This document shows, piece after piece, positions 12,307 to 47,583 of a stretch of 53,606 nucleotides of DNA (position 1 is the first letter of the stretch; the number at the start of each line of letters is the position of its first letter). The stretch spans positions 1 through 53,606 of the forward strand of contig JAZADL010000095.1 of NCBI GenBank assembly GCA_036123635.1, read 5' to 3'. The notes below the pieces were generated by a model. That model saw only the letters and a program-made list of their open reading frames with translations. It had not been told where the DNA came from and ran no database searches. Position numbers and translations under genes: made by a program. Source of the DNA: Actinomycetota bacterium (GTDB lineage Bacteria > Actinomycetota > Acidimicrobiia > Acidimicrobiales > MedAcidi-G1).

Positions 12307-12443
12307 CGGTGGGACCCTAGGGACGGGCAGCGAAGGGAGCCAATCCCCGGTATTGACCCGACGTGGTGACCGGCCGATCCGGGGAGATTCCTACTGGTCT
12401 CGGCTCCGTCAGCTGCCGGTGGCGGCTCGTAGGCTCGACGGAA

Positions 12444-15295: not shown

Positions 15296-15875
15296 ACCCA
15301 CATCCAACAACATTGTCCGAGCCGAAGGGCTTGTGGGTTCCGTTGAGCGGCTTGCCGCCCTCGGCCAAGATGGCCATACGGTCTGGTTCACCGGGTTGTC
15401 TGGCTCAGGCAAGTCCACTCTGGCCTTCGCCTTGGAGGAGGCCCTCCTAGCCCAGGCAAGGGCGGCCTACGTTCTAGATGGCGACAATGTGCGCTTCGGG
15501 CTAAACCGCGACCTCGGTTTCTCCCCAGAGGACCGAACGGAAAATGTGCGGCGGATCGGCGAGGTTTGTCGACTCTTCCAGGACGCCGGACTCATTGTGC
15601 TCACGGCGTTTATCTCTCCCTACCGAATCGATCGGACCGCCGTCCGGGACCTCCACCCAGAAGGTGCCTTTACCGAGGTGTTCGTAGACACCCCGCTGGA
15701 GGTGTGCGAAGAACGGGACGTTAAAGGCCTGTACGCCCGAGCCCGAGCCGGGGAGATCACAGAGTTCAGTGGAATCTCGGCTCCGTACGAGCCGCCGGTG
15801 AACCCTGATGTTCGGATTGACACGTCCCGCCCACTGGAGGAATGCGTGGCCATCCTCCTCAACCACCTGACCTGA
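15288..15875 (+). CDS. cysC: adenylyl-sulfate (APS) kinase, stand-alone
   Basis: 195 aa. Canonical GLSGSGKST P-loop, LDGDNVR and AFISPY motifs. GTG start overlaps the cysNC stop by 8 nt. Confidence 0.9.
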   Translation: MDEPTSNNIVRAEGLVGSVERLAALGQDGHTVWFTGLSGSGKSTLAFALEEALLAQARAAYVLDGDNVRFGLNRDLGFSPEDRTENVRRIGEVCRLFQDAGLIVLTAFISPYRIDRTAVRDLHPEGAFTEVFVDTPLEVCEERDVKGLYARARAGEITEFSGISAPYEPPVNPDVRIDTSRPLEECVAILLNHLT

Positions 15876-24167: not shown

Positions 24168-25106
24168 ATGAGAGCACTTCGTACCCCCGACGAACGTTTC
24201 CTCGATCTACCCGACTTTCCGTTTGAGTCGCACTATGTCGAGATTCCGGCTACTCCCGAAGAAGGCGGTCAGACCGCCGGCGACAGACAGTTGCGAGTGC
24301 ACTATCTCGACGAGGGGCCGACTGATGCTGCGCCGGTGCTACTCCTGCACGGAGAGCCGTCATGGGGTTACCTGTACCGGCACATGATTCCGCCACTGGT
24401 TGCTGCCGGGCACCGGGTCGTCGTACCCGACCAGATTGGCTTCGGCCGCAGTGACAAGCCCACAGAGATGGGTGATTACACGTACGCCCGCCACATCGCT
24501 TGGATGTCGAGCTTGGTGTTCGAACACCTTGACCTCAACGACGTCACATTCTTCGGGCAGGACTGGGGTGGACTGATCGGACTGCGATTGGTCACCGCCG
24601 AACCTGATCGGTTTTCCCGGATCATCTTGTCCAACACCGGCCTTCCTACCGGAACGCCCCCACCCGGGGAGGCGTTTATGGCCTGGCAGAAGTTCTCCCA
24701 GGACTCGCCGGTGTTCCCGATCGGCGAACTGATCAACCGGGCATGCGTGAGCGACCTCTCACCGAACGAGATCGCCGCTTACGACGCACCGTTTCCTGAT
24801 GACTCGTACAAGGCTGGGGCCCGTATCTGGCCATCACTCGTTGTTACGTCACCGGACGGCCCCGAGGGTGCCGATAACACCACTGCATGGGAGACGCTGA
24901 AGGCCTGGGAGAAGCCGCTCTTGTGTTGCTTCAGCGACCAGGACCCGGTCACCCGAGGCGGCGACAAACCGTTCCGGACCCTTGTCCCCGGCGCCCAAGG
25001 GCAACCTCACCGCACCATCGAAGGCGGCGGACACTTCGTGCAAGAGGACTGCGGCCCCGAACTGGCCCAGCTCATTGATGACTTCGTCGGAGGCCGCCTC
25101 ACGTGA
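24168..25106 (+). CDS. haloalkane dehalogenase, DhlA-like (HLD-I type)
   Basis: 312 aa, AAGGAG RBS upstream. RTPDERF...HYLDEG...LLLHGEPSWGYLYRHMIPPL...PDQIGFGRSDKP...FFGQDWGG...APFPDDSYKAG...GGGHFVQED is colinear with Xanthobacter DhlA as I recall it. Confidence 0.85.
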   Translation: MRALRTPDERFLDLPDFPFESHYVEIPATPEEGGQTAGDRQLRVHYLDEGPTDAAPVLLLHGEPSWGYLYRHMIPPLVAAGHRVVVPDQIGFGRSDKPTEMGDYTYARHIAWMSSLVFEHLDLNDVTFFGQDWGGLIGLRLVTAEPDRFSRIILSNTGLPTGTPPPGEAFMAWQKFSQDSPVFPIGELINRACVSDLSPNEIAAYDAPFPDDSYKAGARIWPSLVVTSPDGPEGADNTTAWETLKAWEKPLLCCFSDQDPVTRGGDKPFRTLVPGAQGQPHRTIEGGGHFVQEDCGPELAQLIDDFVGGRLT

Positions 25107-25238
25107 GTGCGGTTCGAGAACACGAGCCGGACAGTGAGACACCATGGCAAATCACTGGACCGTCAACAACGACCTCGTAACCGAACGGAACTTGAGCAAA
25201 GCAACGATGGAGGACCAGTTCATGATGGAGCAACTCCG

Positions 25239-26066
25239 ATGAGTCCTCGCTACGGGCAGATCGACACCGGGTATGGCCGACGCCTGGCATCCACCTCACC
25301 GGACGAAGACGGCCCGGTGTGGATGGTGAACCTAATGAGCTACCGAACGGCAGCCGACTACGCAGATGGTCGCGACTCAACCATCAGCGGGCGCGAGGCC
25401 GACGACCTGTACGCCCCGACGACTCCGTTAGCCGCCGTGGGTGCCGAAATCGTTTTCGTAGGTGACGTGCAGGACCAGTTGCTCGGCGATGAGCCGAAGT
25501 GGGACCGAGTAGCAGTAGTCAAGTACCCGACGCGCCGCAGTTTCATCGACATGCAACAACGCGACGACTTCCAGCGCCTCCACGAACACAAGGACGCGGG
25601 AATGGCCAGAACGATCGTCATGGGGACCCAGCCGATGCTGGGAGCCAATTGGGGCATCTTCGATCTTCCCGACTGGAGCGAGGTGCCCCACCCGCCGACT
25701 ACCGATGACGGCGAGGTGATGGTGGTCCACGTGTTGTCCTTCCACGACGATGTCGGAGCCCAATCGCCGGCAGACATGGAGTCCTACTCCAACCACGCTG
25801 GACAGGTCGCGACCCCACATGGTGGCCGCGTCACAGGATGGTTCGCTGTCGAGGGCACGATCATCGGCGACGGACGACGCTGGGACCAGGTTCGTTTCAA
25901 TACCTTCCCGAGCCGGCGGGCCTTCATGGCCGTTGTCATGGACCCAGACCGTCTTGCAGCTCAACACGACTACCGAGAGCCGGCCATTGCCGATACCTAC
26001 GCGTTGGTGACTCGGCCACTCGTTAATCGACTGGCAGCCTCCGTTGATCAAAAAGAGGGGCTGTAA
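25239..26066 (+). CDS. tandem DUF1330-like (dimeric alpha/beta-barrel) protein
   Basis: ORF 25107..26066, with ATG 25239 the likely start. There are two similar modules: VWMVNLMSYR...WDRVAVVKYPTRRSFIDM and MVVHVLSFHD...WDQVRFNTFPSRRAFMAV. Confidence 0.6.
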   Translation: MSPRYGQIDTGYGRRLASTSPDEDGPVWMVNLMSYRTAADYADGRDSTISGREADDLYAPTTPLAAVGAEIVFVGDVQDQLLGDEPKWDRVAVVKYPTRRSFIDMQQRDDFQRLHEHKDAGMARTIVMGTQPMLGANWGIFDLPDWSEVPHPPTTDDGEVMVVHVLSFHDDVGAQSPADMESYSNHAGQVATPHGGRVTGWFAVEGTIIGDGRRWDQVRFNTFPSRRAFMAVVMDPDRLAAQHDYREPAIADTYALVTRPLVNRLAASVDQKEGL

Positions 26067-26887
26067 TGGAACTCATCCTTACCGGGACCGGTTCGCCCCT
26101 GCCCGACGCCAACCGGGCGGGCCCATCCACCCTGGTGAAGGCCGGCGACACCCACATCCTCGTCGACGCCGGCAGGGGAGTGGTGATGCGAATGGCTGGC
26201 GCCGGGTCGCTTCCAGGATTGCTCGCCGGGGTATTGATCACCCACCTCCACAGCGATCACATATGCGCGCTCAACGACGTGATCACCACCCACTGGGTGA
26301 TGTCGCAAGGCAACGCGACACTTTCGATCTACGGTCCGGCCGGCACGGCTGAGTTCGTTGACCGGCAACTACATGCGCTCGAGCCAGACATCGGTTACCG
26401 GATGGAGCACCACGACGTACTCACCAATCCGCCCCAGGTGCACGTTACCGAGTTGACGCCCGGCGACTCGTTCGCCGTCGGTGGCGTCCAGATCGCCACG
26501 GCGGCGACCGAACACGCACCCGTACGGCCGACAATCGGCTTCCGCCTCGAGCATGACGGCAGCACAGCGGCACTCGTCGGAGACACCGTTCCGTGCGACG
26601 GGGTCGACGAACTAGCTCGCAACGCTGACGTCTACGTCCAGACAGTGATTCGCCGCGACCTCGTCGAAATAATCCCGATCAGCATGATGCAAGACATCCT
26701 CGACTACCACTCCGACGTCGTAGAGGCGGCCCGGACCGCCGAAAGGGTCGGCGCCACGCGACTCGCTCTCACCCATATGGTGCCGGCACCCACGCCTGAG
26801 ACGTACCCGGAGTGGGTAGCTCTGGTTGCCGAGCACTACTCAGGTGAAGTCATCATCGGCGACGACCTCACTACCGTCACCGTCTGA
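26066..26887 (+). CDS. MBL-fold metallo-hydrolase (RNase Z / ElaC-AtsA-like group)
   Basis: 273 aa. MELILTGTGSPLP, ILVDAGRG, canonical ITHLHSDH. Start overlaps the upstream stop (TAATG). Confidence 0.8.
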   Translation: MELILTGTGSPLPDANRAGPSTLVKAGDTHILVDAGRGVVMRMAGAGSLPGLLAGVLITHLHSDHICALNDVITTHWVMSQGNATLSIYGPAGTAEFVDRQLHALEPDIGYRMEHHDVLTNPPQVHVTELTPGDSFAVGGVQIATAATEHAPVRPTIGFRLEHDGSTAALVGDTVPCDGVDELARNADVYVQTVIRRDLVEIIPISMMQDILDYHSDVVEAARTAERVGATRLALTHMVPAPTPETYPEWVALVAEHYSGEVIIGDDLTTVTV

Positions 26888-26900
26888 ATAAGGAGATCCG

Positions 26901-29192
26901 ATGAGCGAATTCAAGGGGACGATCGGCCGGACGCTGGCGGACTCCGAGCCGCACTACATGGAGCCACCACACCCGGGCGAGGCCGCACCCAACGTGGTGA
27001 TCGTGCTCCTTGACGACACAGGCTTCGCCCAACTCGGCTGTTACGGCTCCGACATCGACACCCCAAACGTGGACGCGCTGGCTGCTGGTGGCGTGCAGTT
27101 CACAAACTTCCACGTGACACCACTGTGCTCACCGACGCGTGCGGCGTTGCTAACCGGCCGGTCACAGCACGCAGTCGGACTACGGGGCGTTTCCAACTGG
27201 CGCACCGGGTTCCCACACCAACTGGGCCACATCTCGAACTCGGCGTCCACCATCGCAGAGGTACTCCACGCCGAGGGATACGCCACCTTCTGCGCCGGGA
27301 AGTGGCATCTAGCGCCGACGCAGGACACTTCGGCGGCCGGACCGTTCGACCAGTGGCCGCTGGGACGCGGCTTTGACCGGTTCTACGGGTTCTTGGAGGG
27401 CGAGACCGACCAGTTTTATCCCGAGCTTGTCCGCGACAACACTCACATCGACCCACCGTCAACACCCCGGGACGGATACCACCTCAGCGAGGATCTAGTC
27501 GACCAACTGCTTCAAATGATCACCGACAGCAAGGGTGTGAGGCCGGACCGGCCGTTCTTCGCCTACTTGCCGTTCGGCGCCACACACGCCCCACACCAGG
27601 CCCCGCAGGCCTACCTCGATAAGTATCGAGGTCGATACGACGAGGGCTGGGACGTGGTGCGCCAACGCTGGTACCACCGCCAACTCGAGCTTGGCGTCAT
27701 CCCTCCCGACACAGAACTTGCGCCCCGGAACCCCGGCGTCGAGGCCTGGGACGACCTACCCGAAACGCAACGTCGACTGGCGTGCCGACTCCAGGAGGCC
27801 TTCGCAGCATTCCTGGACCACACCGACGACCAGATCGGCCGACTGGTCGCGGGGCTACGCCACATGGACGAACTCGACAACACGATCCTCGTGGTGCTCG
27901 CCGACAACGGCGCGTCGCAGGAGGGCGGACCGTTCGGAGTGATGCACGAAATGAAGTTCTTCAACGGCATTTTGGAATCACCAGACGAAGCCATCCAACG
28001 CATCGACGACATTGGAGGTCCACACAGCCACACGAACTACCCGTGGGGCTGGGCCCAGTGCGGCAATTCGCCGTTCCGGTGGTACAAGCAGAACACCCAC
28101 GAGGGTGGCGTCCACGTGCCAATGGTCATGCACTGGCCTGCCGGCTTCGATGAAGGACAGGTCGGCACGAAGCGCTCGCAGTTCGTGAACGTGTCCGATA
28201 TCACCCCGACGATCTACGAACTACTCGGCGTCACACCCCCAGAGGTGTACCGGGGAATCGAACAGATGCCAGTCACGGGCCATTCGTTCCGGACCCCCCT
28301 AGGTGATGCAGAGGCACCAGCGACAAACACGCTTCAATACTTCGAGAACTCAGGCAGTCGGGCACTGATCGCGGAATGCGAAGGCGTCTGGTGGAAGGCG
28401 GTGACCAAGCACAATCAGGGCGATGACTTCGACTCCGAGCCTTGGGAACTCTACGACCTCACCGGCGACCCGTCGGAGTGCATCAATCTGGCTGCCGTAG
28501 AGCCACAGAAGCTCGCGCAACTGGTTGACCTGTGGTGGCAGGAAGCCGAACGCCACGGCGTCCTACCACTCGACGACCGGACACTGGAGTTGTTCGCCGC
28601 GCATCCAAGCGACCATTCTCCACACCGCCTCAATCGCCGCTACGTGTACCGGCCGCCGATGTCACCGATTCCTGCAGGCGCTTCGGCCGGGCTCGGCGGC
28701 CGAGCCACCGACCTCATCGCACGAATCACCAGTGCGGCAGGCGATGAAGGCGTCCTATGGGCGACCGGGACCGAGAACTCAGGCTTCTCGGTCTTCTTGC
28801 AGAACGGCCGACTCGTCGTCGACTACAACTCCTTCGATACGCACACAATCGTCGAGTCGACCATTGAAGTACCAACCGGCGATAGCTCGCTCGGCGTCCA
28901 CCTAGAACGCGATAGCCGCACTTCCGGCTGGATCGAGGTGTCCATCGACGGTGAGGCCTGTGGCCGAGCACCGATCCCTTCGTACATGAGGATCATCTCC
29001 TCGGTGGGGGCCAGCGTTGGCCGGGACCACGGTTCGGCCGTGTCGAGCCGTTACTCGGCGCCGTTCGCGTTCACCGGGACCCTGCACGAGGTCGTGATCC
29101 AGTTGCCGGAACACCGGTCCCGAATCCTCGGGGGGGGCGAGGCCAAGGCCGACGAGGCGGCGACGGCCAGAACGGAGATGTCGCGTCAATGA
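26901..29192 (+). CDS. Cys-type formylglycine arylsulfatase, long form with C-terminal LamG/ConA-like domain
   Basis: 763 aa. VVIVLLDDTGF metal site, FGly motif LCSPTRAALLTGR (Cys codon 27126..27128), GKWHL, ADNGAS, WELYDLTGDPSE. About 230 further residues resemble a jelly-roll domain. No signal peptide. Confidence 0.92.
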   Translation: MSEFKGTIGRTLADSEPHYMEPPHPGEAAPNVVIVLLDDTGFAQLGCYGSDIDTPNVDALAAGGVQFTNFHVTPLCSPTRAALLTGRSQHAVGLRGVSNWRTGFPHQLGHISNSASTIAEVLHAEGYATFCAGKWHLAPTQDTSAAGPFDQWPLGRGFDRFYGFLEGETDQFYPELVRDNTHIDPPSTPRDGYHLSEDLVDQLLQMITDSKGVRPDRPFFAYLPFGATHAPHQAPQAYLDKYRGRYDEGWDVVRQRWYHRQLELGVIPPDTELAPRNPGVEAWDDLPETQRRLACRLQEAFAAFLDHTDDQIGRLVAGLRHMDELDNTILVVLADNGASQEGGPFGVMHEMKFFNGILESPDEAIQRIDDIGGPHSHTNYPWGWAQCGNSPFRWYKQNTHEGGVHVPMVMHWPAGFDEGQVGTKRSQFVNVSDITPTIYELLGVTPPEVYRGIEQMPVTGHSFRTPLGDAEAPATNTLQYFENSGSRALIAECEGVWWKAVTKHNQGDDFDSEPWELYDLTGDPSECINLAAVEPQKLAQLVDLWWQEAERHGVLPLDDRTLELFAAHPSDHSPHRLNRRYVYRPPMSPIPAGASAGLGGRATDLIARITSAAGDEGVLWATGTENSGFSVFLQNGRLVVDYNSFDTHTIVESTIEVPTGDSSLGVHLERDSRTSGWIEVSIDGEACGRAPIPSYMRIISSVGASVGRDHGSAVSSRYSAPFAFTGTLHEVVIQLPEHRSRILGGGEAKADEAATARTEMSRQ

Positions 29193-29716
29193 ATGGCCAG
29201 CGCACCATCGACGACGTCCCCGTGGCCCACACCCCTGACGGGGGCTGGACCACCTGGCCGCCCCCGGTCCTGGCTGGCTGCACCGAACCGGCCCCCGTCG
29301 ATGCTCCCGACCTTGACGGCTACTGGCGCACGGTCGAGATCCTGGTCGACGACCAGGAGCAACCCGACCACCCGGGACTGGGCCATGTCCAGCGGGTTGA
29401 ACAACGCGGTGACCGACTGGTCGTCACCGGTGGAGGCATCATCCACGACATGCGCTGTGACGGCACCCTGGAACGGGGAGTCCACGACGTCGCTGAGTTC
29501 GACAAGATCACCGAGATCCACGTGGTGGCCAGCTACGAGGACGGAGAACATGTACTCCGTCCTAAAGGCATGCCGATCGAGATCCGTCGCCGGCGAGAGG
29601 GTGAGAAAATGGTGTGGGACTACCTCGGGTACACGGCGCGGCTCGAACACCTTGCTCCCTCCGAGACTGACCCGGCCAACGTTTCAGCCTTGCAACCAAT
29701 TGCAGGAGATCGCTAA
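29189..29716 (+). CDS. hypothetical protein, translationally coupled to sulfatase
   Basis: 175 aa with balanced composition and GC3-rich codons. ATGA overlap with the sulfatase stop. The competing frame 29193..29738 is S/T/P/R-rich and was rejected. No family recognised. Confidence 0.65.
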   Translation: MNGQRTIDDVPVAHTPDGGWTTWPPPVLAGCTEPAPVDAPDLDGYWRTVEILVDDQEQPDHPGLGHVQRVEQRGDRLVVTGGGIIHDMRCDGTLERGVHDVAEFDKITEIHVVASYEDGEHVLRPKGMPIEIRRRREGEKMVWDYLGYTARLEHLAPSETDPANVSALQPIAGDR

Positions 29717-29786
29717 TGGAGACCCACCGGGCCCCTGAGGACGCCGGACCGACACCGGCCCAGGTCCTGATCAGTTTCTGTAACAA

Positions 29787-30230
29787 GTGATAGAGATCAC
29801 AGAGAAGACGGTCATCTCCCGGTCACCGGAGACCGTCTGGGCGGCAGTGGCCGATTTCGGTGAGATCAGCCGGTGGGCGCCAAACGTCGACCATTCATGC
29901 CTCACAAGCGCACAGAGTGAGGGTGCAGGCAGCGTCAGACGGGTCCAGGTCGACCGAAACGCGCTCCTCGAACGTGTCACGGAATGGGAACCTGGCCGCC
30001 AGCTCTGCTACAGCATCGAAGGGTTGCCGCCCGTCGTTCGCTCGGTAACCAACACTTGGAAACTTGACGGCACAGATGGTGGAACAGCCGTCACGATCAC
30101 GAGCCGTATCGATACTGGCCCCCGACCGCCCCAACAGGTGGTGGCCCGGGTCTTCGGCCGAGTCCTAGCCAAGGCTTCACGCCGCATGCTCGAAGGCCTA
30201 AAGACGCACCTCGAGGAGGGCACGCGATGA
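29787..30230 (+). CDS. SRPBCC (START/polyketide-cyclase-like) ligand-binding protein
   Basis: 147 aa. IEITEKTVISRSPETVWAAVADFGEISRWAPNV is the typical SRPBCC N-terminus. GTG start. Confidence 0.8.
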   Translation: MIEITEKTVISRSPETVWAAVADFGEISRWAPNVDHSCLTSAQSEGAGSVRRVQVDRNALLERVTEWEPGRQLCYSIEGLPPVVRSVTNTWKLDGTDGGTAVTITSRIDTGPRPPQQVVARVFGRVLAKASRRMLEGLKTHLEEGTR

Positions 30231-32833
30231 ACCGTCCCGACGTCGTCGTCCTCATGACGGACCAGGAACGTGCCGCTCCACCATATGAGCCAGAGGAAAT
30301 CGCGGCGTGGCGGCGCGAGAAGCTGACCGGGGCCCGGTGGTTCGAAGACAACGGGGTCTCATTTCGCCGCCACTACACAGGCTCGCTCGCCTGCGTTCCC
30401 AGCAGACCGACCCTGTTCACCGGCCAGTACCCCGACGTCCATGGCGTCACCCAAACAAACGGGCTCGGCAAGATGGAAGACGATTCGCGGATGCGATGGC
30501 TGCGACCCGGCGAGGTGCCGACACTCGGCCACTGGTTCCGCTCCAGCGGATACGACACCAAGTACGTAGGAAAGTGGCACATGAGCCACGCCGACTTGAT
30601 CGACTCGGCTACTGGAAAAGCACTGGCCACCCACGATGCCCGTGGTGCCCTCGACCAAGCAGCAGTGCAGGCCTATCTCGAGGCCGATCCCCTCGATGTA
30701 TTCGGATTTTCCGGATGGATCGGACCTGAACCCCATGGCGCGGCACCAGCCCAGTGGGGGCTGATCTGTGACCCAGTATTCGCCGCTCGTGCCGTCGACT
30801 GGCTCGAAGATCGATACGCACGGAGGCGCGCCGGCGAAGAAATGGCGCGGCGGCCGTTTCTGCTGGTCGTGTGCTTCGTCAACCCTCACGACGTCGTCTA
30901 CACGCCGGCCTGGCTCGGACCAATCGGCCCGGATAATCCGTTCGCAACCGATGCCGACAACCCACCTGACGTCCCCGCGTCGCCTACCGACGACGAAGAC
31001 CTAGCGACGAAGCCTGCAGCACAGGTCGCGTACAGGGCGTCCTATCCATCGACCTACGGCCCACCCCCAGTAGTTGAACGCACTTACCACCAACGAGCAC
31101 AGGAATACCGAAATCTCTACTACCGGCTGCACCTTGCCTCCGACGCTCCACTCGATCGGGTTCGCCGAGCGGTCAGCGAATGTGGCTCCGACAACGCGAT
31201 ATTGGTCCGTACGTCTGATCACGGTGAGTTGCTCGGCGCCCACGGTGGGCTTCACCAGAAATGGTTCAACCTCTACGACGAAGCCACCCGTGTGCCGTTC
31301 ACCATCGCCAGGGTCGGGGCTAAGCAGACGACCGGTCGCGTGGTCAACGATGCGCCCACATCACATGTTGACCTCGTACCTACCCTGCTCGCTGCAGCAG
31401 GCATCGACGTGGCTTCGACGTCCGAACGCATGCAAGCGTCCTTTAGTGAACTACACCCGTTTCCCGGCCGCGATCTCACACCGGTGCTCGACGGCGCTGC
31501 TGACCCAGACCGTGACCGCACCGTCTACGCGATCACTCGAGACAACATGCCAGAGGGCGACTCCGGCGCAAGCGGCGTGGCTCGCCGCCTAGGGCGCATC
31601 GACAGGCAACCGCCGCCGCTACGGATTCGTGTGCCCGCTCACGTCGCCGCGAATTTCGAGAGCATCATCAGTCGCGTCAGCGATATAGATGCCGCCGGCG
31701 GGGGAGGAAACCTCTGGAAGATCGTCCGCAGCTTCGACGATCCAGAGACTTGGACCGAACCCGGCATCCGACACCTGGCCAGCACTGGACCGGCTGGCGA
31801 CATGTACCGCTCAGCTCCGTTGCCCGACCAGTGGGAGCTCTACGACCTCGACGCCGACCCAACCGAAGCCGACAACCGCTGGGAAGAACCGGAAGCGGCA
31901 GCAGTCTTTGAGCTCCTCGCCGGCCGTCTCGCTACTGAACGGATACGGGCTGTTCCCCGTCGTAACCGCCCGTGGCCCTATGCCGTTCGCACCCCAACCG
32001 GAGGTCCCGCCGTGAAGAAGGCGCGCCCCCCTGCACGTGTCTTGCGAAGGCTCCTCAAGCGAGCCGGCATGCATCCAGATGACACTGAGGCCAGTGATGT
32101 CGATCTGACGGGTCGGCGAGCCGTGGTTATCGCCACGAACCATGGCGTGCTGGATGTGGGCAAACCCACGGGCGTCTTCTCCAGCGAGCTCACCGTGGCC
32201 TACTACGCCTTTCTCGATGCCGGCATGACCGTCGACGTCGCCAGCCCCAAAGGCGGCGTAATCCCCGTCGACCCGCAATCACTCAAGGCCGTACTACGCA
32301 CCGACGCCTGTGACCGCTTCCTGGCCGATGACGACTTCAAGGCCAAGGTCAACGATTCCCTGATTGTCGCCGATCTGGAAGTGGTCAACTACGACATCGT
32401 CTATCTCGCCGGTGGTTGGGGCGCAGCCTTTGATCTTGGATTTTCCGAAGAACTCGGACGACAGATCACGGTCGCAAACGAGCACGAGCAAGTAATCGGC
32501 GGAGTTTGCCATGGCCCGCTCGGATTGATCCGAGCTAAGGCCGAGGACGGCTCGCCACTCGTCCAGGGTCGACGGGTCACTGGGGTGACCGACAAGCAGG
32601 TGTACGAGCTCGGCATTGCCAGCACGCCCCAGCATCCCGAAACCGAACTACGCAAGCTTGGCGCCCACTTCGAGAGTGAAACCCGATTCCGTGATCCCTT
32701 CGCAAATCACTGGGTGGTCGACGGCAACCTTGTTACTGGCCAAAACCAGAATGCTGCACCGATGGTTGCCCGCGAGATGCTGCGGCTAGCAGCAGCGGCC
32801 GAAGTGCCGACCGACCTGGAGGAGGTCTCATGA
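30227..32833 (+). CDS. fusion protein: Cys-type formylglycine sulfatase (N, about aa 1-575) plus Hsp31-like DJ-1/PfpI domain (C, about aa 620-868)
   Basis: Single 868-aa ORF. VVVLMTDQ, FGly motif ACVPSRPTLFTGQYP (Cys codon 30392..30394), GKWHMSH, SDHGE, WELYDLDADPTEADN. A basic linker follows. The DJ-1 domain then shows KPTGVFSSELTVAYYAFLDAGMTVDVASPKGG, YLAGGWGA, IGGVCHGP (Cys codon 32507..32509) and VVDGNLVTGQN. ATGA overlap with the upstream gene. Confidence 0.85.
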   Translation: MNRPDVVVLMTDQERAAPPYEPEEIAAWRREKLTGARWFEDNGVSFRRHYTGSLACVPSRPTLFTGQYPDVHGVTQTNGLGKMEDDSRMRWLRPGEVPTLGHWFRSSGYDTKYVGKWHMSHADLIDSATGKALATHDARGALDQAAVQAYLEADPLDVFGFSGWIGPEPHGAAPAQWGLICDPVFAARAVDWLEDRYARRRAGEEMARRPFLLVVCFVNPHDVVYTPAWLGPIGPDNPFATDADNPPDVPASPTDDEDLATKPAAQVAYRASYPSTYGPPPVVERTYHQRAQEYRNLYYRLHLASDAPLDRVRRAVSECGSDNAILVRTSDHGELLGAHGGLHQKWFNLYDEATRVPFTIARVGAKQTTGRVVNDAPTSHVDLVPTLLAAAGIDVASTSERMQASFSELHPFPGRDLTPVLDGAADPDRDRTVYAITRDNMPEGDSGASGVARRLGRIDRQPPPLRIRVPAHVAANFESIISRVSDIDAAGGGGNLWKIVRSFDDPETWTEPGIRHLASTGPAGDMYRSAPLPDQWELYDLDADPTEADNRWEEPEAAAVFELLAGRLATERIRAVPRRNRPWPYAVRTPTGGPAVKKARPPARVLRRLLKRAGMHPDDTEASDVDLTGRRAVVIATNHGVLDVGKPTGVFSSELTVAYYAFLDAGMTVDVASPKGGVIPVDPQSLKAVLRTDACDRFLADDDFKAKVNDSLIVADLEVVNYDIVYLAGGWGAAFDLGFSEELGRQITVANEHEQVIGGVCHGPLGLIRAKAEDGSPLVQGRRVTGVTDKQVYELGIASTPQHPETELRKLGAHFESETRFRDPFANHWVVDGNLVTGQNQNAAPMVAREMLRLAAAAEVPTDLEEVS

Positions 32834-35973: not shown

Positions 35974-36822
35974 GTGTCCGCCCCCTTCGAAACGGTCCGG
36001 CTCACTCCGGTTATCGGCGCTGAGGTCCGGGGCCTCGACGTGACCGGCGGAATCGACGAAGCCACCACCGACGCTCTCTACCGGACCCTCCTCGAACACC
36101 ACGTCCTGATCCTGCGCGGCAGGTCACTATCGCCCGAACAGCTGGAGGTGCTCGCCTCAGCCTTCGGGCCCCTGGCACCTTCCCACCACACGTACCCCCA
36201 CCTCCCGGGGCACCCGTCGGTGACAGTGCTCGACAACGGACCTGACAACCCACCCGACAACGCCGAATGGCACACCGATCTGAGCTTCCGTCCCGGTCAA
36301 CCGTTCCTTTCGATCCTCCAGCCGTCACTCCTACCGCCCGTCGGCGGCGACACCCTGTTCGCCAGCCTGTTCGCCGTTCACGACGCTCTCCTCCCAGGAA
36401 TGAGGACCGACCTCGGCGACCTATCCAGCGTCCACGACATGGGCTCATTCCGCACCCACACCTTCCAAGAGGGCGGGGTGGAACTGATGAACGAGCGGAT
36501 GGCCGAAGTCGGATCGACAGTCCATCCGATGATCGACCACCACCCAGTATCCGGTCGACCGTTCATCCACGTGAACGAGTGCTTCACAACCCACGTTCTG
36601 GGCATGCCTATGCCCGAGGGTCGACGCCTGCTGGCCTTCCTGTTCGACATGATCAACCGACCACAGTTCCAAGTACGGGTCCGGTGGGAGAAGGACATGG
36701 TGCTTCTGTGGGACAACCGCGGAACCCAGCACTACGCGGCCGACGACTACCTCCCACACCGGCGGGTAATGCACCGGGTGATGGTTGCCGAAGACCCTCG
36801 AGTCAACGGCTCAGCCGACTAG
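35974..36822 (+). CDS. TauD/TfdA-family Fe(II)/2-oxoglutarate dioxygenase (taurine / alkyl-sulfate-ester dioxygenase-like)
   Basis: 282 aa. GAEVRGLDV, WHTDLSF (HxD), GGDTLFAS, distal His region HPMIDHHP, WDNRGTQHYA. Confidence 0.85.
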   Translation: MSAPFETVRLTPVIGAEVRGLDVTGGIDEATTDALYRTLLEHHVLILRGRSLSPEQLEVLASAFGPLAPSHHTYPHLPGHPSVTVLDNGPDNPPDNAEWHTDLSFRPGQPFLSILQPSLLPPVGGDTLFASLFAVHDALLPGMRTDLGDLSSVHDMGSFRTHTFQEGGVELMNERMAEVGSTVHPMIDHHPVSGRPFIHVNECFTTHVLGMPMPEGRRLLAFLFDMINRPQFQVRVRWEKDMVLLWDNRGTQHYAADDYLPHRRVMHRVMVAEDPRVNGSAD

Positions 36823-37976: not shown

Positions 37977-40277
37977 ATGGACCATCCCACCGTTGACGGC
38001 CCGATCATCGGGCGCACCACCAGCGAGTCCACCCCTTGGTGGCCTGAGCCCGTTCTGCCGGCCGCCGGCACCCCCAATGTCGTCGTCGTACTGCTGGACG
38101 ACACCGGTTTCGCCCATCTTGGGTGTTACGGAGGACCGGTCGACACTCCAAACTATGACCGTCTAGCCGCCCAGGGCCTTCGCTACACAAACTTTCACAC
38201 CACGGCGCTCTGCTCGCCGACTCGCGCCTGCCTATTAACGGGTCGCAACCATCACTCAGTAGGTATGCGGGCTCTGTCCAACTTCGACACCGGCTTTCCC
38301 AATATGCGCGGTCGAATCGCCCGATCGGCAGGCACGCTGGCTGAGATCCTGCGCGAGGACGGCTTCGCTACGTGGGCCATCGGCAAGTGGCACCTCACCC
38401 CAATGCGAGAAGCCTCGGCTGTCGGCCCATTCGGAGACTGGCCACTCCAGCGGGGATTCGACCGGTACTACGGATTCATGCAGGGTGAAACCGACCAGTT
38501 CCACCCGGAGCTCTACGAGGACAACCACCTAGTTGACGTACCTCAAACTCCGGCGGAGGGCTACCACGTCACAGAAGATCTGGTCGATCACGCAATCGAC
38601 TTGGTCCGGACCCAACACACGATGGTTCCGGAACGTCCGTTCTTTCTTTACCTGGCCTTTGGCGCTACCCATGCTCCCCACCAGGCACCGGACGCCTATC
38701 TCGAGAAGTGGCGGGGACGATTCGACGAAGGATGGGACGTAGTCCGCCAACAGGTTTACGAACGACAACTGGACATGGGAGTGATCCCACCCGGGACGGA
38801 GCTAGCCCCCCGGAACCCAGGAGTGGAGGCGTGGGAAGACCTCTCGACCGACGAACGTGACGTGGCCTGCCGACTCCAAGAGGCCTTCGCCGCCATGCTC
38901 GACCACACCGACACCCAACTAGGGCGACTGCTGGACTCGCTGGACGAGCTGGGCATTACCGACGACACCGTGATCGTGGCACTCAGCGACAACGGGGCCT
39001 CGCAGGAAGGCCGAGCCCACGGAGTCCTGGACACATTCCGACATTTCAACGGAATCAATCAGCCCCTCGACGAAGCGATGGACCGGCTGGACGCCATCGG
39101 GACCCGGACGTCCAACACCAACTACCCCTGGGGGTGGGCCCAGGTAGGCAACACCCCCGGCAAGCGCTACAAGCAGAACACCCACGGCGGCGGGGTCCGC
39201 GATCCCCTGATTGTTTCGTGGCCCAACGGCATCCACCAGGACGCCTCAGGGGGAATCCGAACCCAGTTCCACCATGTGATCGACTTGGCCCCGACGATTC
39301 TCGAACTGGTCGGCTCGGCACCGCCCGATGCGATTGGAGGCGTGGCTCAACAGCCGATCGAGGGGACCAGCCTTGCATACACCTTCGACACAAAGGCCGA
39401 GGACGCCGACGCCGTTCCCACACGGAAGGAGAGCCAATACTTCGAGATGCAAGGGCACCGGGCCCTCTGGCACGACGGATGGAAGGCCGTGGCCTATCAC
39501 CGACACGGCACGGCATTAGACGACGATGTCTGGGAGCTTTACCACCTCGACGAGGACTTCTCGGAGTGTCACGACCTGGCCGATGGCCACCCTGAACGAC
39601 TGGCTGGAATGGTGGACCGATTCTGGGAGGAGGCCGAACGCTACGACGTCCTACCCATCATGGATGACGCCGGAGACCTCGGCGGGTCACGACCCCTGTT
39701 TGCCGGCCACCCCACTCCCGGAACCCCAAAGAACCGGGACGAATTCACCTACCTTCCGCCCACACCGCGTGTTCCCCCGGATGCCGGTCCCGCCTTCGGC
39801 TCACGCAACTGGACAATGCGCTTCGAGGTAGAGCGGCCCGACGGAGAAGAGGCCGGAGTCCTCCTAGCCGTCGGCACAGTGAACAACGGGCTGGTGGCCT
39901 ACGTCGACCAGCGAGGACACCTCATCTACGACCACAACGCCTACGGCAACCACACAGTGCTCCGGTCGCTGTCACCCATTCCAACCGGGTGTTCCGTCCT
40001 AGAGGTTCACCAGGACCGCGTGCGGCAAGGTCCCGGACGGGCCCGCCTGGTGGTTGACGGAACACAGGTTGGAGAGAAGAGCATCCCCGAAATTCCCACC
40101 ATGATCTCACCCGTCGGATTGGACGTGGGCCGGAACCCAACCGGGGTTAGTTCGGACTACGAGCCCCCCTTCGCTTTCCAGGGCCGAATCCACCGAGTGG
40201 ACATTGCCACCCGACGAGCCTTCCGGGCAGAAGATGAGGCGGCAATCGAGTTGGCGGCCGCCGAACGGATGCAGTGA
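37977..40277 (+). CDS. Cys-type formylglycine arylsulfatase, long form (paralog of 26901..29192)
   Basis: 766 aa. VVVVLLDDTGF, LCSPTRACLLTGR (Cys codon 38211..38213), GKWHL, SDNGAS, WELYHLDEDFSE, C-terminal jelly-roll-like extension. No signal peptide. Confidence 0.92.
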   Translation: MDHPTVDGPIIGRTTSESTPWWPEPVLPAAGTPNVVVVLLDDTGFAHLGCYGGPVDTPNYDRLAAQGLRYTNFHTTALCSPTRACLLTGRNHHSVGMRALSNFDTGFPNMRGRIARSAGTLAEILREDGFATWAIGKWHLTPMREASAVGPFGDWPLQRGFDRYYGFMQGETDQFHPELYEDNHLVDVPQTPAEGYHVTEDLVDHAIDLVRTQHTMVPERPFFLYLAFGATHAPHQAPDAYLEKWRGRFDEGWDVVRQQVYERQLDMGVIPPGTELAPRNPGVEAWEDLSTDERDVACRLQEAFAAMLDHTDTQLGRLLDSLDELGITDDTVIVALSDNGASQEGRAHGVLDTFRHFNGINQPLDEAMDRLDAIGTRTSNTNYPWGWAQVGNTPGKRYKQNTHGGGVRDPLIVSWPNGIHQDASGGIRTQFHHVIDLAPTILELVGSAPPDAIGGVAQQPIEGTSLAYTFDTKAEDADAVPTRKESQYFEMQGHRALWHDGWKAVAYHRHGTALDDDVWELYHLDEDFSECHDLADGHPERLAGMVDRFWEEAERYDVLPIMDDAGDLGGSRPLFAGHPTPGTPKNRDEFTYLPPTPRVPPDAGPAFGSRNWTMRFEVERPDGEEAGVLLAVGTVNNGLVAYVDQRGHLIYDHNAYGNHTVLRSLSPIPTGCSVLEVHQDRVRQGPGRARLVVDGTQVGEKSIPEIPTMISPVGLDVGRNPTGVSSDYEPPFAFQGRIHRVDIATRRAFRAEDEAAIELAAAERMQ

Positions 40278-47473: not shown

Positions 47474-47583
47474 GGCTGGCCCTTCAGTCACCCGCGATCA
47501 TCCTGCGCGAGACAGCAGTCTGCCGAAGCGGGGACTGGGACCGGACCCCGTTTGGAAGCCAGACCGAGGCTACGGTCCGCCCC

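What the first reader, a model, noticed from the sequence alone, without database searches (positions are those of the whole stretch)
30227..32833. Single-polypeptide fusion of a formylglycine sulfatase with an Hsp31-like DJ-1/PfpI domain
One uninterrupted 868-aa ORF contains two complete domains:
- A type I sulfatase: metal site VVVLMTDQ, C56-V-P-S-R-P-T-L-F-T-G FGly motif, GKWHMSH, and C-terminal WELYDLDADPTEADN at about aa 536.
- A DJ-1/PfpI domain of the Hsp31/glyoxalase-III-like class: KPTGVFSSELTVAYYAFLDAGMTVDVASPKGG, YLAGGWGA, nucleophile elbow IGGVCHGP with Cys761-His762, and VVDGNLVTGQN.

The two are joined by a basic linker (VKKARPPARVLRRLLKRAG). I know of no characterised sulfatase with this architecture.

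Possible logics:
- Desulfation releases a reactive alpha-oxo-aldehyde or hemiacetal that the glyoxalase/deglycase-type domain detoxifies in cis.
- The Cys-His domain acts as an amidase on the same substrate, for example an N-acyl or N-linked sulfated compound.
- The domain has a chaperone or redox-sensing role.

An in-frame ATG at 32069 (M615) would also allow separate expression of the DJ-1 domain.
Basis: partly seen in the sequence, partly recalled or inferred. Interest (0 to 1): 0.8.

Follow-up and report, generated by a model that had tools for sequence, protein, structure and literature searches.

The report
AtsF-type sulfatase fused to DJ-1 enzyme
This is a real gene, conserved across Acidimicrobiia, that joins a sulfate-ester-cleaving enzyme (the counterpart of the uncharacterised mycobacterial sulfatase AtsF) to a cysteine-based DJ-1-type enzyme; the two are most likely steps of one unstudied pathway for breaking down sulfated fatty or steroid-like compounds.

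Summary
It has an N-terminal formylglycine-type sulfatase with every catalytic residue, and a C-terminal DJ-1/PfpI domain with Glu654/Cys761/His762.

It is not an assembly artefact. At least 184 protein clusters and 80 species genomes share the architecture, almost all Acidimicrobiia, including two isolates. They form one tight orthogroup.

The sulfatase half is 65% identical, end to end, to the orphan mycobacterial sulfatase AtsF (Rv3077). The upstream SRPBCC gene, which overlaps its start, matches Rv3076. In another lineage those two are fused.

The DJ-1 half belongs to a distinct Hsp31-like subfamily with three other settings:
- a separate gene two genes after an AtsF-like sulfatase;
- beside exported sulfatases in marine contigs (28 of 37 loci);
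- fused to an RNase-Z-like metallo-beta-lactamase in Myxococcota.

The "basic linker" is the DJ-1 module's own N-terminal helix. The true linker is aa 589-601 and keeps a GGAGG-N7-GTG start signal. M615 is not a conserved start.

Best reading: two enzymes of one uncharacterised catabolic pathway for sulfated hydrophobic compounds have fused. Substrate and DJ-1 chemistry remain unknown. The architecture is common and auto-annotated but unstudied, so it is moderately interesting.

The parts
30227..32833 (+). Whole fusion gene, 868 aa. Its ATG overlaps the stop of the upstream SRPBCC gene (ATGA).
30227..31990 (+). AtsF-type type I sulfatase module (aa 1-588), with no signal peptide.
   Evidence: Pfam Sulfatase aa 4-393 and SGSH_C aa 533-571. 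It is 65% identical over aa 2-588 to the 586-aa M. smegmatis sulfatase. D12, C56, P58, R60, K116, H118, H221, D222, D331, H332 and K345 are invariant in 120-121 sequences. These residues align to the BetC catalytic residues.
30392..30424 (+). Formylglycine motif C56-V-P-S-R-P-T-L-F-T-G.
   Evidence: C56 aligns with the Cys of the corresponding CAPAR motif in BetC 6fny; that this is the FGly residue, Cys54, is from memory and from the C54S entry title 7pth
31991..32029 (+). True inter-domain linker (aa 589-601), variable in sequence and length.
   Evidence: 38% mean pairwise identity against 73% and 77% in the two domains; 12-90 residues long across orthologues. AF2 pLDDT is about 40 here.
32000..32014 (+). 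GGAGG (32000-32004), 7 nt, then in-frame GTG (32012-32014, V596). This is a relic or still-used ribosome-binding site and start of the ancestral DJ-1 gene.
   Evidence: Sequence. A start plus SD-like motif occurs here in 36 of 81 loci, against 7.2% of control windows. GGAGG occurs in 21 of 81 loci, against about 1.6% expected per window; GGA Gly codons are 44% here against 10% background.
32030..32797 (+). DJ-1/PfpI module of a distinct Hsp31-like subfamily (aa 602-857), including its N-terminal helix ending AGMHPDD.
   Evidence: Pfam DJ-1_PfpI aa 650-853. Best PDB matches are 1u9c (about 1e-29) and 4p5p. It is 68% identical to the free-standing 270-aa protein of L089. Subfamily signature residues.
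32507..32512 (+). Cys761-His762, the nucleophile elbow. The partner Glu654 is at 32186-32188.
   Evidence: C761 and H762 are invariant in all 121 aligned sequences, and E654, C761 and H762 in all 16 distant subfamily members. E654 aligns with E27 of 1u9c.
29787..30230 (+). SRPBCC / Polyketide_cyc2 gene (147 aa), the partner of the sulfatase.
   Evidence: Pfam hit. It lies immediately upstream in 76 of 77 loci that have room for it. The same pair occurs in M. smegmatis and M. tuberculosis. It is fused to the C-terminus of the sulfatase in P0123 and relatives, with 44% identity.
29189..29716 (+). 175-aa protein with no Pfam family. Its start overlaps the stop of the 763-aa sulfatase.
   Evidence: homologues lie beside DJ-1 genes in marine contigs
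26901..29192 (+). Second type I sulfatase (763 aa, CSPTR motif, no signal peptide), a conserved cluster member.
   Evidence: found in 51 of the 80 loci
26066..26887 (+). RNase-Z-like metallo-beta-lactamase (273 aa), a conserved cluster member.
   Evidence: found in 44 loci. It is 32% identical to the MBL half of MBL::DJ-1 fusions.
25107..26066 (+). DUF1330-like protein (319 aa), a conserved cluster member.
   Evidence: found in 43 loci. A 32%-identical homologue (E 2e-40) lies in the Myxococcota MBL::DJ-1 cluster.
24168..25106 (+). Haloalkane-dehalogenase-type alpha/beta hydrolase (312 aa), a conserved cluster member.
   Evidence: NCBIfam NF002043 scores 445 bits against a cut-off of 265. QDWGG and GGGHF motifs are present. 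Found in 42 loci, with 36-45% identical homologues in marine DJ-1 clusters.

Best explanation
The gene is a fusion of two neighbouring operon genes that encode two enzymes of one uncharacterised catabolic pathway for a sulfated, hydrophobic small molecule (a lipid, sterol or alicyclic sulfate).

Shown:
- The N-terminal module is an AtsF-type formylglycine sulfatase with a complete active site.
- It has no signal peptide, which implies a cytoplasmic location.
- Its start codon overlaps the stop codon of an SRPBCC (START-like, hydrophobic-ligand-binding) partner gene, which suggests translational coupling.
- The C-terminal module is a separate, fully conserved Cys-His-Glu enzyme of a distinct Hsp31-like DJ-1 subfamily.
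- That subfamily recurs with sulfatases, an RNase-Z-like MBL, a haloalkane-dehalogenase-type alpha/beta hydrolase and a DUF1330-like protein in several phyla.

Inferred:
- The SRPBCC protein hands the substrate to the sulfatase.
- The sulfatase removes a sulfate ester.
- The DJ-1 module uses Cys761 as a nucleophile for a second step on the same compound or its product. That step could be hydrolysis of an ester, amide or thioester, or conversion of a reactive carbonyl.
- The flexible 13-residue tether only keeps the two activities together at 1:1.
- In about a third to a half of the species, this window included, a retained SD plus start codon at the junction may also give free DJ-1 protein.
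For: Both halves are intact and constrained:
- All sulfatase catalytic residues and C761/H762/E654/E794 are invariant in 121 sequences.
- The DJ-1 half (77% mean identity) is at least as conserved as the sulfatase half (73%), while the junction is not (38%).

Three independent 'Rosetta stone' links tie the parts together:
- The sulfatase is fused to an SRPBCC domain in 15 protein clusters, one of them labelled Deltaproteobacteria. That domain is 44% identical to the upstream gene.
- The SRPBCC and sulfatase genes overlap by 4 nt in M. smegmatis and by 8 nt as called in M. tuberculosis.
- The DJ-1 module is a separate gene two genes downstream of an AtsF-like sulfatase in L089, at 68% identity.

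The same DJ-1 subfamily lies within 2.5 kb of a type I sulfatase, on the same strand, in 28 of 37 marine metagenome loci. It is also fused to an MBL that is homologous to the cluster's MBL.

The accessory genes recur across phyla: HLD-type hydrolase, MBL, DUF1330-like protein and the 175-aa protein. Their neighbours include BVMO, esterase, SDR, P450 and TetR genes, which is typical of lipid or steroid catabolism. The window itself is rich in organosulfate genes.
Against: - No substrate is known for AtsF or for any member of this DJ-1 subfamily (PMC3675115). The chemistry of both steps is therefore inferred.
- The AF2 model gives no confident inter-domain geometry (pTM 0.65, linker pLDDT about 40), so nothing supports or refutes channelling.
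- Mycobacteria keep AtsF plus SRPBCC with no DJ-1 gene nearby. Four Myxococcota-type MBL::DJ-1 loci have no type I sulfatase within 6-10 kb. Neither module strictly needs the other.
- The hydrophobic-substrate idea rests on the SRPBCC fold and on the types of neighbouring genes only.
Confidence: 0.5

Rival explanations
1. First reader's logic 1. Desulfation releases a reactive alpha-oxoaldehyde or hemiacetal, and the DJ-1 domain acts as a glyoxalase III to detoxify it in cis.
For: The domain has the Glu-Cys-His set used by Hsp31-class glyoxalases III. Its PDB sequence matches include Glx3 (4lru) and yeast and fungal Hsp31 proteins. A TauD-type dioxygenase of the aldehyde-forming alkylsulfatase class is in the window (PMC3675115).
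Against: - Type I sulfatases yield alcohols, not aldehydes.
- The subfamily replaces the His conserved in YDR533c, Hsp31 and 1u9c (H108/H155/H96) with an invariant Trp731, so it is not a canonical Hsp31.
- NCBIfam HchA scores only 30 bits against a cut-off of 365.
- Exported homologues exist, and the DJ-1 module also occurs fused to an MBL with no type I sulfatase nearby.
Confidence: 0.15
2. The DJ-1 domain is non-catalytic. It would act as a stability, oligomerisation or holdase appendage, like the Hsp31-derived C-terminal domain of large-subunit catalases.
For: There is a precedent for a DJ-1-fold domain appended to the C-terminus of an unrelated enzyme (PMC9137513; PMC1782040 notes that no active site is predicted in the catalase DJ-1 domain). 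Hsp31 proteins have chaperone activity (PMC4981205).
Against: - Cys-His-Glu and about ten further polar residues are invariant across fused, free and MBL-fused members at only about 50% overall identity.
- The domain is more conserved than the sulfatase half.
- Free-standing orthologues exist, so it is an autonomous protein.
Confidence: 0.12
3. The DJ-1 module acts on the sulfatase itself. It could protect or repair the formylglycine aldehyde against thiol or amine adducts, help its maturation, or act as a redox switch through Cys761.
For: It is associated with at least two different sulfatase families: AtsF-like here, and about 550-610-aa exported sulfatases in marine loci. No FGE or radical-SAM maturase was found in the window. 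DJ-1 proteins have been reported to act on aldehyde adducts (bioRxiv 10.1101/2022.09.23.509147, abstract); that this is disputed is from memory.
Against: - MBL::DJ-1 fusions occur in four loci with no type I sulfatase nearby.
- Mycobacterial AtsF has no such partner nearby.
- There is no biochemical precedent.
Confidence: 0.08
4. This rival concerns the N-terminal half only. It would not be a sulfatase in the strict sense but a formylglycine-dependent phosphonate-monoester or phosphodiester hydrolase of the same fold.
For: PDB sequence matches include phosphonate monoester hydrolases (4upk, 2vqr, 2w8s) at scores similar to true sulfatases. NCBIfam PehA (phosphoric/sulfuric ester hydrolase) scores 64 bits. 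The metal site uses a D-H pair, as in BetC; that the PMH group shares this pair is from memory.
Against: - The best full-length structural and sequence analogue is choline sulfatase.
- Sulfate-assimilation genes and other sulfatase classes are in the window.
- AtsF is treated as a type I sulfatase in the mycobacterial literature (PMC3675115).
- All matches are at only about 20% identity, so none is decisive.
Confidence: 0.15

Closest known systems
Mycobacterial AtsF (Rv3077) with its upstream SRPBCC gene (Rv3076)
   Same: The sulfatase half is 65% identical over its whole length (aa 2-588 against the 586-aa M. smegmatis protein). An SRPBCC gene lies immediately upstream and overlaps the start of the sulfatase gene. 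The M. tuberculosis locus has the gene order pgmA, crcB, HpcH_HpaI, SRPBCC, sulfatase, SOI, luciferase-like, then a 1110-aa kinase. I identify this as Rv3068c-Rv3080c from memory of the H37Rv map.
   Different: AtsF is 586-603 aa and has no DJ-1 domain or DJ-1 gene nearby. Its substrate is unknown (PMC3675115). A protein the authors call AtsF (MAB_4469c) was detected in M. abscessus only under carbon starvation (PMC13174468); I did not test its orthology to Rv3077.
Hsp31 / Glx3 / YDR533c class of the DJ-1 superfamily, with structural-genomics proteins 1u9c (APC35852) and 4p5p (Francisella REP24)
   Same: Same fold: Foldseek TM-score 0.83-0.85 normalised to the target. The Cys-His nucleophile elbow is present, and the conserved Glu (E654) aligns with E27 of 1u9c. 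D789 aligns with the predicted site residue D154 of 1u9c.
   Different: - Only 26-29% identity.
- An invariant Trp731 replaces the His that is conserved in Hsp31, YDR533c and 1u9c.
- It has its own signature (Q791, E794, H803, E805, E807, D823) and an N-terminal helix ending AG[LM]HP[DE].
- No member is characterised.
- It fails the NCBIfam HchA, PfpI and DJ-1 cut-offs.
Large-subunit catalases (E. coli HPII, Neurospora Catalase-1), which carry a C-terminal Hsp31-derived domain
   Same: A DJ-1-fold domain is appended to the C-terminus of an unrelated enzyme (PMC9137513, PMC1782040).
   Different: No active site is predicted in the catalase DJ-1 domain (PMC1782040). Here the catalytic residues are invariant, and the module also exists as a free enzyme.
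Choline sulfatase BetC and the arylsulfatase / phosphonate monoester hydrolase group of the alkaline-phosphatase superfamily
   Same: These are the best full-length structural matches (6fny and related entries, E about 1e-17). The CxPxR, GKxH, PHD, DHG and K residues align. Both lack a signal peptide.
   Different: 18-20% identity. NCBIfam choline-sulfatase scores 91 bits against a cut-off of 433. There are roughly 90 extra residues in insertions. It is not a BetC orthologue.

Membership tests
Type I (formylglycine) sulfatase, Pfam PF00884 / SulfAtlas class S1 | Alkaline-phosphatase-like sulfatase domain above the curated HMM threshold | tested here: met
   PF00884 aa 4-393, 138.5 bits against 25. 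Foldseek matches S1 sulfatases at E about 1e-17.
Type I (formylglycine) sulfatase, Pfam PF00884 / SulfAtlas class S1 | C/S-x-P-x-R formylglycine motif followed by xxxxTG | tested here: met
   C56-V-P-S-R-P-T-L-F-T-G. C56, P58 and R60 are invariant in 121 sequences. C56 aligns with the Cys of the CAPAR motif of BetC (its identity as the FGly residue Cys54 is from memory).
Type I (formylglycine) sulfatase, Pfam PF00884 / SulfAtlas class S1 | Metal ligands and the catalytic Lys/His set | tested here: met
   D12 (Q13), K116, H118, H221, D331, H332 and K345 are invariant. Apart from D12/Q13, which lie outside the alignment, they align with GKMH, PHD, DHG and K of BetC.
Type I (formylglycine) sulfatase, Pfam PF00884 / SulfAtlas class S1 | A formylglycine-generating system (FGE or anSME) in the genome, and actual Cys-to-FGly conversion | not testable with these tools
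   No PF03781 or radical-SAM maturase was found among the window ORFs scanned. The rest of the genome is not available.
Type I (formylglycine) sulfatase, Pfam PF00884 / SulfAtlas class S1 | Sulfate-ester hydrolysis preferred over phosphonate or phosphodiester hydrolysis | not testable with these tools
   Needs enzymology. PMH-type structures score similarly to sulfatases.
AtsF (Rv3077) orthogroup | High end-to-end identity to mycobacterial AtsF | tested here: met
   65% identity over aa 2-588 against 586 aa. The M. tuberculosis member is identified by its gene neighbourhood.
AtsF (Rv3077) orthogroup | SRPBCC gene immediately upstream, overlapping the start codon | tested here: met
   Window 29787..30230 against 30227. 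Present in 76 of 77 loci and in M. smegmatis and M. tuberculosis.
AtsF (Rv3077) orthogroup | Single-domain architecture of about 590-600 aa | tested here: not met
   The window protein is 868 aa with an added DJ-1 module. This is the variant feature.
DJ-1/PfpI superfamily, Hsp31-like class | DJ-1_PfpI domain above the Pfam threshold and a class I glutamine-amidotransferase-like fold | tested here: met
   PF01965, 42.5 bits against 26.6. 1u9c and 4p5p match at TM 0.83-0.85.
DJ-1/PfpI superfamily, Hsp31-like class | Nucleophile-elbow Cys followed by His, plus the conserved Glu | tested here: met
   C761, H762 and E654 are invariant in 121 orthologues and in 16 distant members.
DJ-1/PfpI superfamily, Hsp31-like class | Second active-site His (YDR533c H108 / Hsp31 H155 / 1u9c H96) | tested here: not met
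   It is replaced by Trp731. Trp occupies this position in all 12 close subfamily members, and Arg or His in the more distant ones. Residue equivalences come and PMC1782040.
DJ-1/PfpI superfamily, Hsp31-like class | Equivalog-level match to glyoxalase III HchA, PfpI or DJ-1 | tested here: not met
   HchA 30.5 bits against 365, PfpI 26.4 against 139, DJ-1-type 19.3 against 131.
DJ-1/PfpI superfamily, Hsp31-like class | Glyoxalase III, amidase or chaperone activity | not testable with these tools
   Needs biochemistry.

The most novel reading that the evidence does not exclude
The Trp-type DJ-1 module would define a new enzyme family that is a dedicated partner of desulfating hydrolases. It is fused to a type I sulfatase in Acidimicrobiia, fused to an RNase-Z-like MBL of the kind once proposed as a type III sulfatase in Myxococcota, and adjacent to exported sulfatases in marine Gram-negatives. 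On this reading it catalyses a previously unknown Cys-dependent step that follows desulfation of sulfated lipids or steroids. The conserved set of sulfatase, SRPBCC, DJ-1, MBL, dehalogenase-type hydrolase and DUF1330-like protein would then be a new cross-phylum catabolic pathway, and it would at last point to the substrate class of the orphan M. tuberculosis sulfatase AtsF.
Probability: 0.25. Interest if true: 0.75.

Novelty: new variant of a known kind. Interest (0 to 1): 0.55.

Why it matters
None of the M. tuberculosis type I sulfatases has a known substrate, and that has been an open question for more than a decade (PMC3675115). This locus places the AtsF orthologue in a much richer, conserved genetic context than mycobacteria offer. 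That context includes an SRPBCC partner, a fused Cys-His enzyme, a second sulfatase, an MBL and a dehalogenase-type hydrolase.

This gives concrete, testable hypotheses about the substrate class, and a set of proteins to co-express.

It also singles out an uncharacterised DJ-1 subfamily whose genomic associations (sulfatases, MBL, exported forms) do not fit the usual story of cytosolic methylglyoxal detoxification. That is relevant to the long-running debate about what DJ-1-fold enzymes really do.

Ecologically, the gene is near-universal in marine, freshwater, sponge-associated and wastewater Acidimicrobiia, so the pathway probably matters for turnover of organosulfates.

Tried and rejected
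- Assembly artefact or frameshift: rejected. Hundreds of colinear orthologues exist, including isolates, and the junction in a near-identical separate MAG assembly has no indel.
- M615 as an internal start: rejected as a conserved feature, and no SD-like motif precedes it.
- Inter-domain geometry from AlphaFold2: inconclusive. Mean pLDDT is 74.7 and pTM 0.65, the linker and several active-site loops score below 50, and neither PAE nor coordinates were available.
- Literature searches found nothing on this architecture or gene cluster. The terms tried were sulfatase with PfpI and Acidimicrobiia, SulfAtlas with DJ-1/ThiJ/PfpI, Rv3077 with sulfatase, REP24, and haloalkane dehalogenase with sulfatase and chlorosulfolipid. 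One search failed on syntax, and the first AtsF search returned unrelated acronyms.
- My first strict clustering of neighbouring ORFs under-clustered small genes. I relied on tblastn counts instead.
- A neighbour-joining tree of sulfatase domains interleaves stand-alone and fused forms. It is too crude to say whether fusion or fission happened more than once.
- Chlorosulfolipids, sterol sulfates and bile-alcohol sulfates were considered as substrates because of the dehalogenase, SRPBCC, BVMO, esterase, SDR and P450 neighbours. These remain speculation, since no tool here can test substrate identity.
- SulfAtlas subfamily assignment could not be made with the tools available.

Full report
**1.

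The window has one uninterrupted ORF at 30227..32833 (+), 868 aa.

Pfam assigns three families:
- Sulfatase (PF00884) to aa 4-393, E 3.9e-40.
- SGSH_C to aa 533-571.
- DJ-1_PfpI (PF01965) to aa 650-853, E 7.8e-11.

The Sulfatase and DJ-1_PfpI assignments are well above their curated cut-offs. NCBIfam gives only sub-threshold hits: choline sulfatase 91 bits against 433, and HchA 30 bits against 365. Both domains are therefore assigned to superfamilies but not to any characterised equivalog.

**2. It is not an artefact, and it is not rare**

- The best 120 relatives among 5.8 billion proteins are all 842-947 aa, 68-97% identical, and carry the same three Pfam domains. JGI already names some of them 'arylsulfatase A-like enzyme/putative intracellular protease/amidase'.
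- A scan of one genome per species found at least 587 genomes with a relative. The best 80 loci are nearly all Acidimicrobiia, and all but a few contig-truncated ones are full length. They include Ilumatobacteraceae, Microthrixaceae, the sponge symbionts Ca. Poriferisocius and Poriferisodalis, and the isolate Actinospongicola halichondriae. The isolate Iamia majanohamensis also has the gene.
- The window is 98% identical to MAG 'Acidimicrobiaceae bacterium SP351'. Across the domain junction the two assemblies differ by 3 SNPs and no indel, and GC content is even.
- Against 1.84 billion representatives clustered at 50% identity, only one full-length fusion representative appears, plus fragments. 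The architecture is therefore one tight orthogroup.
- Among the proteins I fetched, 184 are sulfatase+DJ-1, 107 are sulfatase alone and 15 are sulfatase+SRPBCC.

**3. What the N-terminal half is**

- Residues 2-588 are 65% identical, end to end, to a 586-aa stand-alone sulfatase of Mycolicibacterium smegmatis. Many Mycobacterium species have the same protein at 586-603 aa.
- The M. tuberculosis member sits between an HpcH_HpaI gene plus a 158-aa SRPBCC gene on one side and an SOI-domain gene, a luciferase-like gene and a 1110-aa kinase on the other, with crcB and pgm further upstream. From my memory of the H37Rv map this is Rv3077 (atsF), with Rv3076 as the SRPBCC gene.
- AtsF is listed among the type I sulfatases of M. 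tuberculosis 'whose substrates are not known' (PMC3675115). In M. abscessus, a protein the authors call AtsF was detected only under carbon starvation (PMC13174468).
- The active site is complete. D12, C56, P58, R60, K116, H118, H221, D222, D331, H332 and K345 are invariant in 120-121 sequences. Apart from D12, they align with the corresponding residues of choline sulfatase BetC.
- The closest solved structures are only 16-20% identical: choline sulfatase, S1_11 sulfatases and phosphonate monoester hydrolases.
- None of the orthologue N-termini I inspected has a signal peptide.

**4. The SRPBCC partner**

- The 147-aa Polyketide_cyc2/SRPBCC gene at 29787..30230 ends inside the fusion's start codon (ATGA).
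- It lies directly upstream in 76 of the 77 loci that have room for it.
- The same two-gene unit occurs in mycobacteria, with a 4-nt overlap in M. smegmatis and 8 nt as called in M. tuberculosis.
- In another lineage (15 protein clusters, one of them labelled Deltaproteobacteria) the sulfatase carries this domain fused to its C-terminus, with 44% identity to the window's SRPBCC protein.
- This is strong evidence for a functional pair. Given the fold, a hydrophobic ligand is likely, but that is an inference.

**5. What the C-terminal half is**

The best sequence and fold matches are two proteins of unknown function, 1u9c (APC35852) and 4p5p (Francisella REP24). After them come fungal Hsp31 and Glx3.

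Residue equivalences, and PMC1782040:
- E654 corresponds to E27 of 1u9c.
- C761-H762 corresponds to C126-H127.
- D789 corresponds to D154.
- The His conserved in 1u9c, YDR533c and Hsp31 (H96/H108/H155) is replaced by Trp731.

Trp731, together with Q791, E794, H803, E805, E807, D823 and an N-terminal helix ending AG[LM]HP[DE], defines a subfamily that occurs in four settings:
- (a) Fused to AtsF, as here.
- (b) As a free 270-aa protein 68% identical to aa 602-857, two genes downstream of an AtsF-like sulfatase. The order in L089 is sulfatase, P450, SRPBCC, AtsF-like sulfatase, SDR, DJ-1.
- (c) As free proteins of about 284 aa in marine metagenome contigs.
- (d) Fused to the C-terminus of an RNase-Z-like metallo-beta-lactamase in Myxococcota and 'Deltaproteobacteria'.

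The real tether is aa 589-601, which is 38% identical across orthologues and 12-90 residues long. By comparison, the sulfatase half is 73% identical and the DJ-1 half 77%.

**6. A relic, or still working, internal start**

- In the tether the window reads GGAGG (32000-32004), then 7 nt, then an in-frame GTG (32012, V596).
- An in-frame start with an SD-like motif occurs here in 36 of 81 loci, against 7.2% of control windows in the same genes.
- GGAGG is present in 21 of 81 loci, against about 1.6% expected per window.
- Gly codons in the tether are 44% GGA, against 10% elsewhere in the gene.
- ATG or GTG occupies the equivalent codon in 26 of 81 loci.

This marks the ancestral start of the DJ-1 gene. 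Because it persists in genomes that have diverged to about 65% identity, it may still produce free DJ-1 protein in some species.

**7. The wider gene cluster**

In Acidimicrobiia the fusion usually sits with the following genes:

| Gene | Window coordinates | Loci of 80 |
|---|---|---|
| Second sulfatase, about 760 aa | 26901..29192 | 51 |
| RNase-Z-like MBL | 26066..26887 | 44 |
| Haloalkane-dehalogenase-type alpha/beta hydrolase | 24168..25106 | 42 |
| DUF1330-like protein | 25107..26066 | 43 |

- The alpha/beta hydrolase scores 445 bits against a cut-off of 265 for NCBIfam NF002043 and has QDWGG and GGGHF motifs.
- Iamia has the order TetR, SDR, sulfatase, MBL, alpha/beta hydrolase, HTH, SRPBCC, fusion.

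The accessory genes follow the DJ-1 module into other phyla:
- The MBL half of MBL::DJ-1 fusions is 32% identical to the window's MBL.
- A Myxococcota-type MBL::DJ-1 locus also encodes an alpha/beta hydrolase, a homologue of the DUF1330-like protein (E 2e-40) and a second MBL.
- Of the marine loci with at least 2.5 kb on both sides of the free DJ-1 gene, 28 of 37 have a type I sulfatase within 2.5 kb, always on the same strand.
- Those marine loci often also hold dehalogenase-type hydrolases (36-45% identity), the 175-aa protein family of 29189..29716, DUF1330, MBL, BVMO, an Abhydrolase_3 esterase, SDR, TetR and GST genes.
- In those Gram-negative contigs the DJ-1 protein and the sulfatases have N-terminal signal or anchor sequences.
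- Four MBL::DJ-1 loci have no type I sulfatase within 6-10 kb.

**8. Interpretation**

Shown:
- Two autonomous, catalytically intact modules.
- They are genetically linked in three independent ways: fusion, adjacency and shared accessory genes.
- The fusion arose by joining neighbouring operon genes.

Inferred:
- The SRPBCC protein delivers a hydrophobic sulfate ester.
- The AtsF module removes the sulfate.
- The DJ-1 module performs a Cys761-dependent step on the same compound or its product, within a pathway that also uses the MBL, the dehalogenase-type hydrolase and the DUF1330-like protein.

The neighbouring P450, SDR, BVMO and esterase genes, and the window's alkylsulfatase-like MBL, TauD-type dioxygenase, fatty-acid hydroxylase and beta-oxidation-type genes, point loosely to lipid, alkyl or steroid sulfates. 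I hold this at about 0.5 confidence.

The main rivals are as follows:
- A purely structural role, like the DJ-1-fold domain of large catalases (PMC9137513), is contradicted by the invariant catalytic residues and by the free-standing orthologues.
- A role in maintaining the formylglycine residue of the sulfatase is attractive but unsupported. It is disfavoured by the MBL::DJ-1 loci that lack a type I sulfatase.

**9. Novelty and score**

The architecture is a new variant of known kinds. It combines two well-known folds in a conserved, uncharacterised arrangement that annotation pipelines already see but nobody has studied.

Its value lies in three things:
- the link to orphan AtsF;
- the definition of a sulfatase-associated, Trp-type DJ-1 subfamily;
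- a conserved multi-hydrolase cluster spanning several phyla.

Interest: 0.55.

Noticed in passing
window 5944..7197, 12363..15875, 26901..29192, 35974..36822, 37977..40277, 46037..47491(-): The window is an organosulfate island. Besides the fusion it holds three more type I sulfatases, an alkylsulfatase-like MBL with an Alkyl_sulf_dimr domain, a TauD-type dioxygenase, CysD, a CysN/CysC fusion and a second stand-alone APS kinase. No FGE or radical-SAM sulfatase maturase was found among the ORFs scanned.
   Followed up: partly
window 32000..32014: GGAGG, 7 nt, then an in-frame GTG inside the inter-domain linker. This start signal is enriched about 6-fold (start plus SD) to 16-fold (GGAGG) over background across 81 orthologous loci, and GGA Gly codons are over-used there. 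It could be the relic start of the ancestral DJ-1 gene or a working internal initiation site.
   Followed up: yes
window 29189..29716 and 29193..29738: Two long ORFs overlap here in different frames. The 175-aa frame (29189..29716), whose ATG overlaps the stop of the 763-aa sulfatase, has homologues in 15 Acidimicrobiia loci and beside DJ-1 genes in 14 marine contigs, where one inspected example has a hydrophobic N-terminus. It has no Pfam family. The other frame matches only two loci (median identity 94%) and is probably spurious.
   Followed up: partly
window 24168..25106: This alpha/beta hydrolase passes NCBI's haloalkane dehalogenase subfamily cut-off (445 bits against 265) and has the QDWGG nucleophile and GGGHF His motifs. 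It is conserved next to sulfatases and DJ-1 genes in several phyla. That raises the untested idea of halogenated, sulfated substrates such as chlorosulfolipids.
   Followed up: partly
L087 8001..16288; L088, L172, L173: MBL::DJ-1 fusion proteins of 680-810 aa occur in Myxococcota and 'Deltaproteobacteria' (including Ca. Magnetomorum). In three of the four loci they sit next to alpha/beta hydrolases (large, 609-682 aa, in two), and a two-component system lies next to the fusion or within a few kb in all four. None of the four loci has a type I sulfatase nearby.
   Followed up: partly
L085 6001..8271 (M. tuberculosis strain assembly GCA_000661855.1): In some M. tuberculosis assemblies the AtsF orthologue is called as 756 aa with two separate Sulfatase Pfam stretches, against 586-603 aa in other mycobacteria. 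This could be an internal duplication, an insertion or a gene-calling difference. Logan assemblies also contain 756-759-aa proteins carrying both SRPBCC and sulfatase domains, which cluster with the mycobacterial sequences in the tree.
   Followed up: no
L019, L060, L070: Three of the 80 fusion loci come from MAGs labelled Polyangiales, Mycobacteriales and Ca. Azotimanducaceae. L019 and L070 are contigs of about 6 kb, while L060 lies on an 86.7-kb contig. They are 65-74% identical to the Acidimicrobiia gene and are probably mis-binned rather than evidence of a wider host range.
   Followed up: no
window 25107..26066: This 319-aa protein has only a weak DUF1330 match (28.6 bits, aa 107-171). 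It has a 32%-identical homologue (E 2e-40) in a Myxococcota MBL::DJ-1 cluster, and short DUF1330 genes lie in marine DJ-1/sulfatase clusters. It is an uncharacterised, recurring member of the module.
   Followed up: partly
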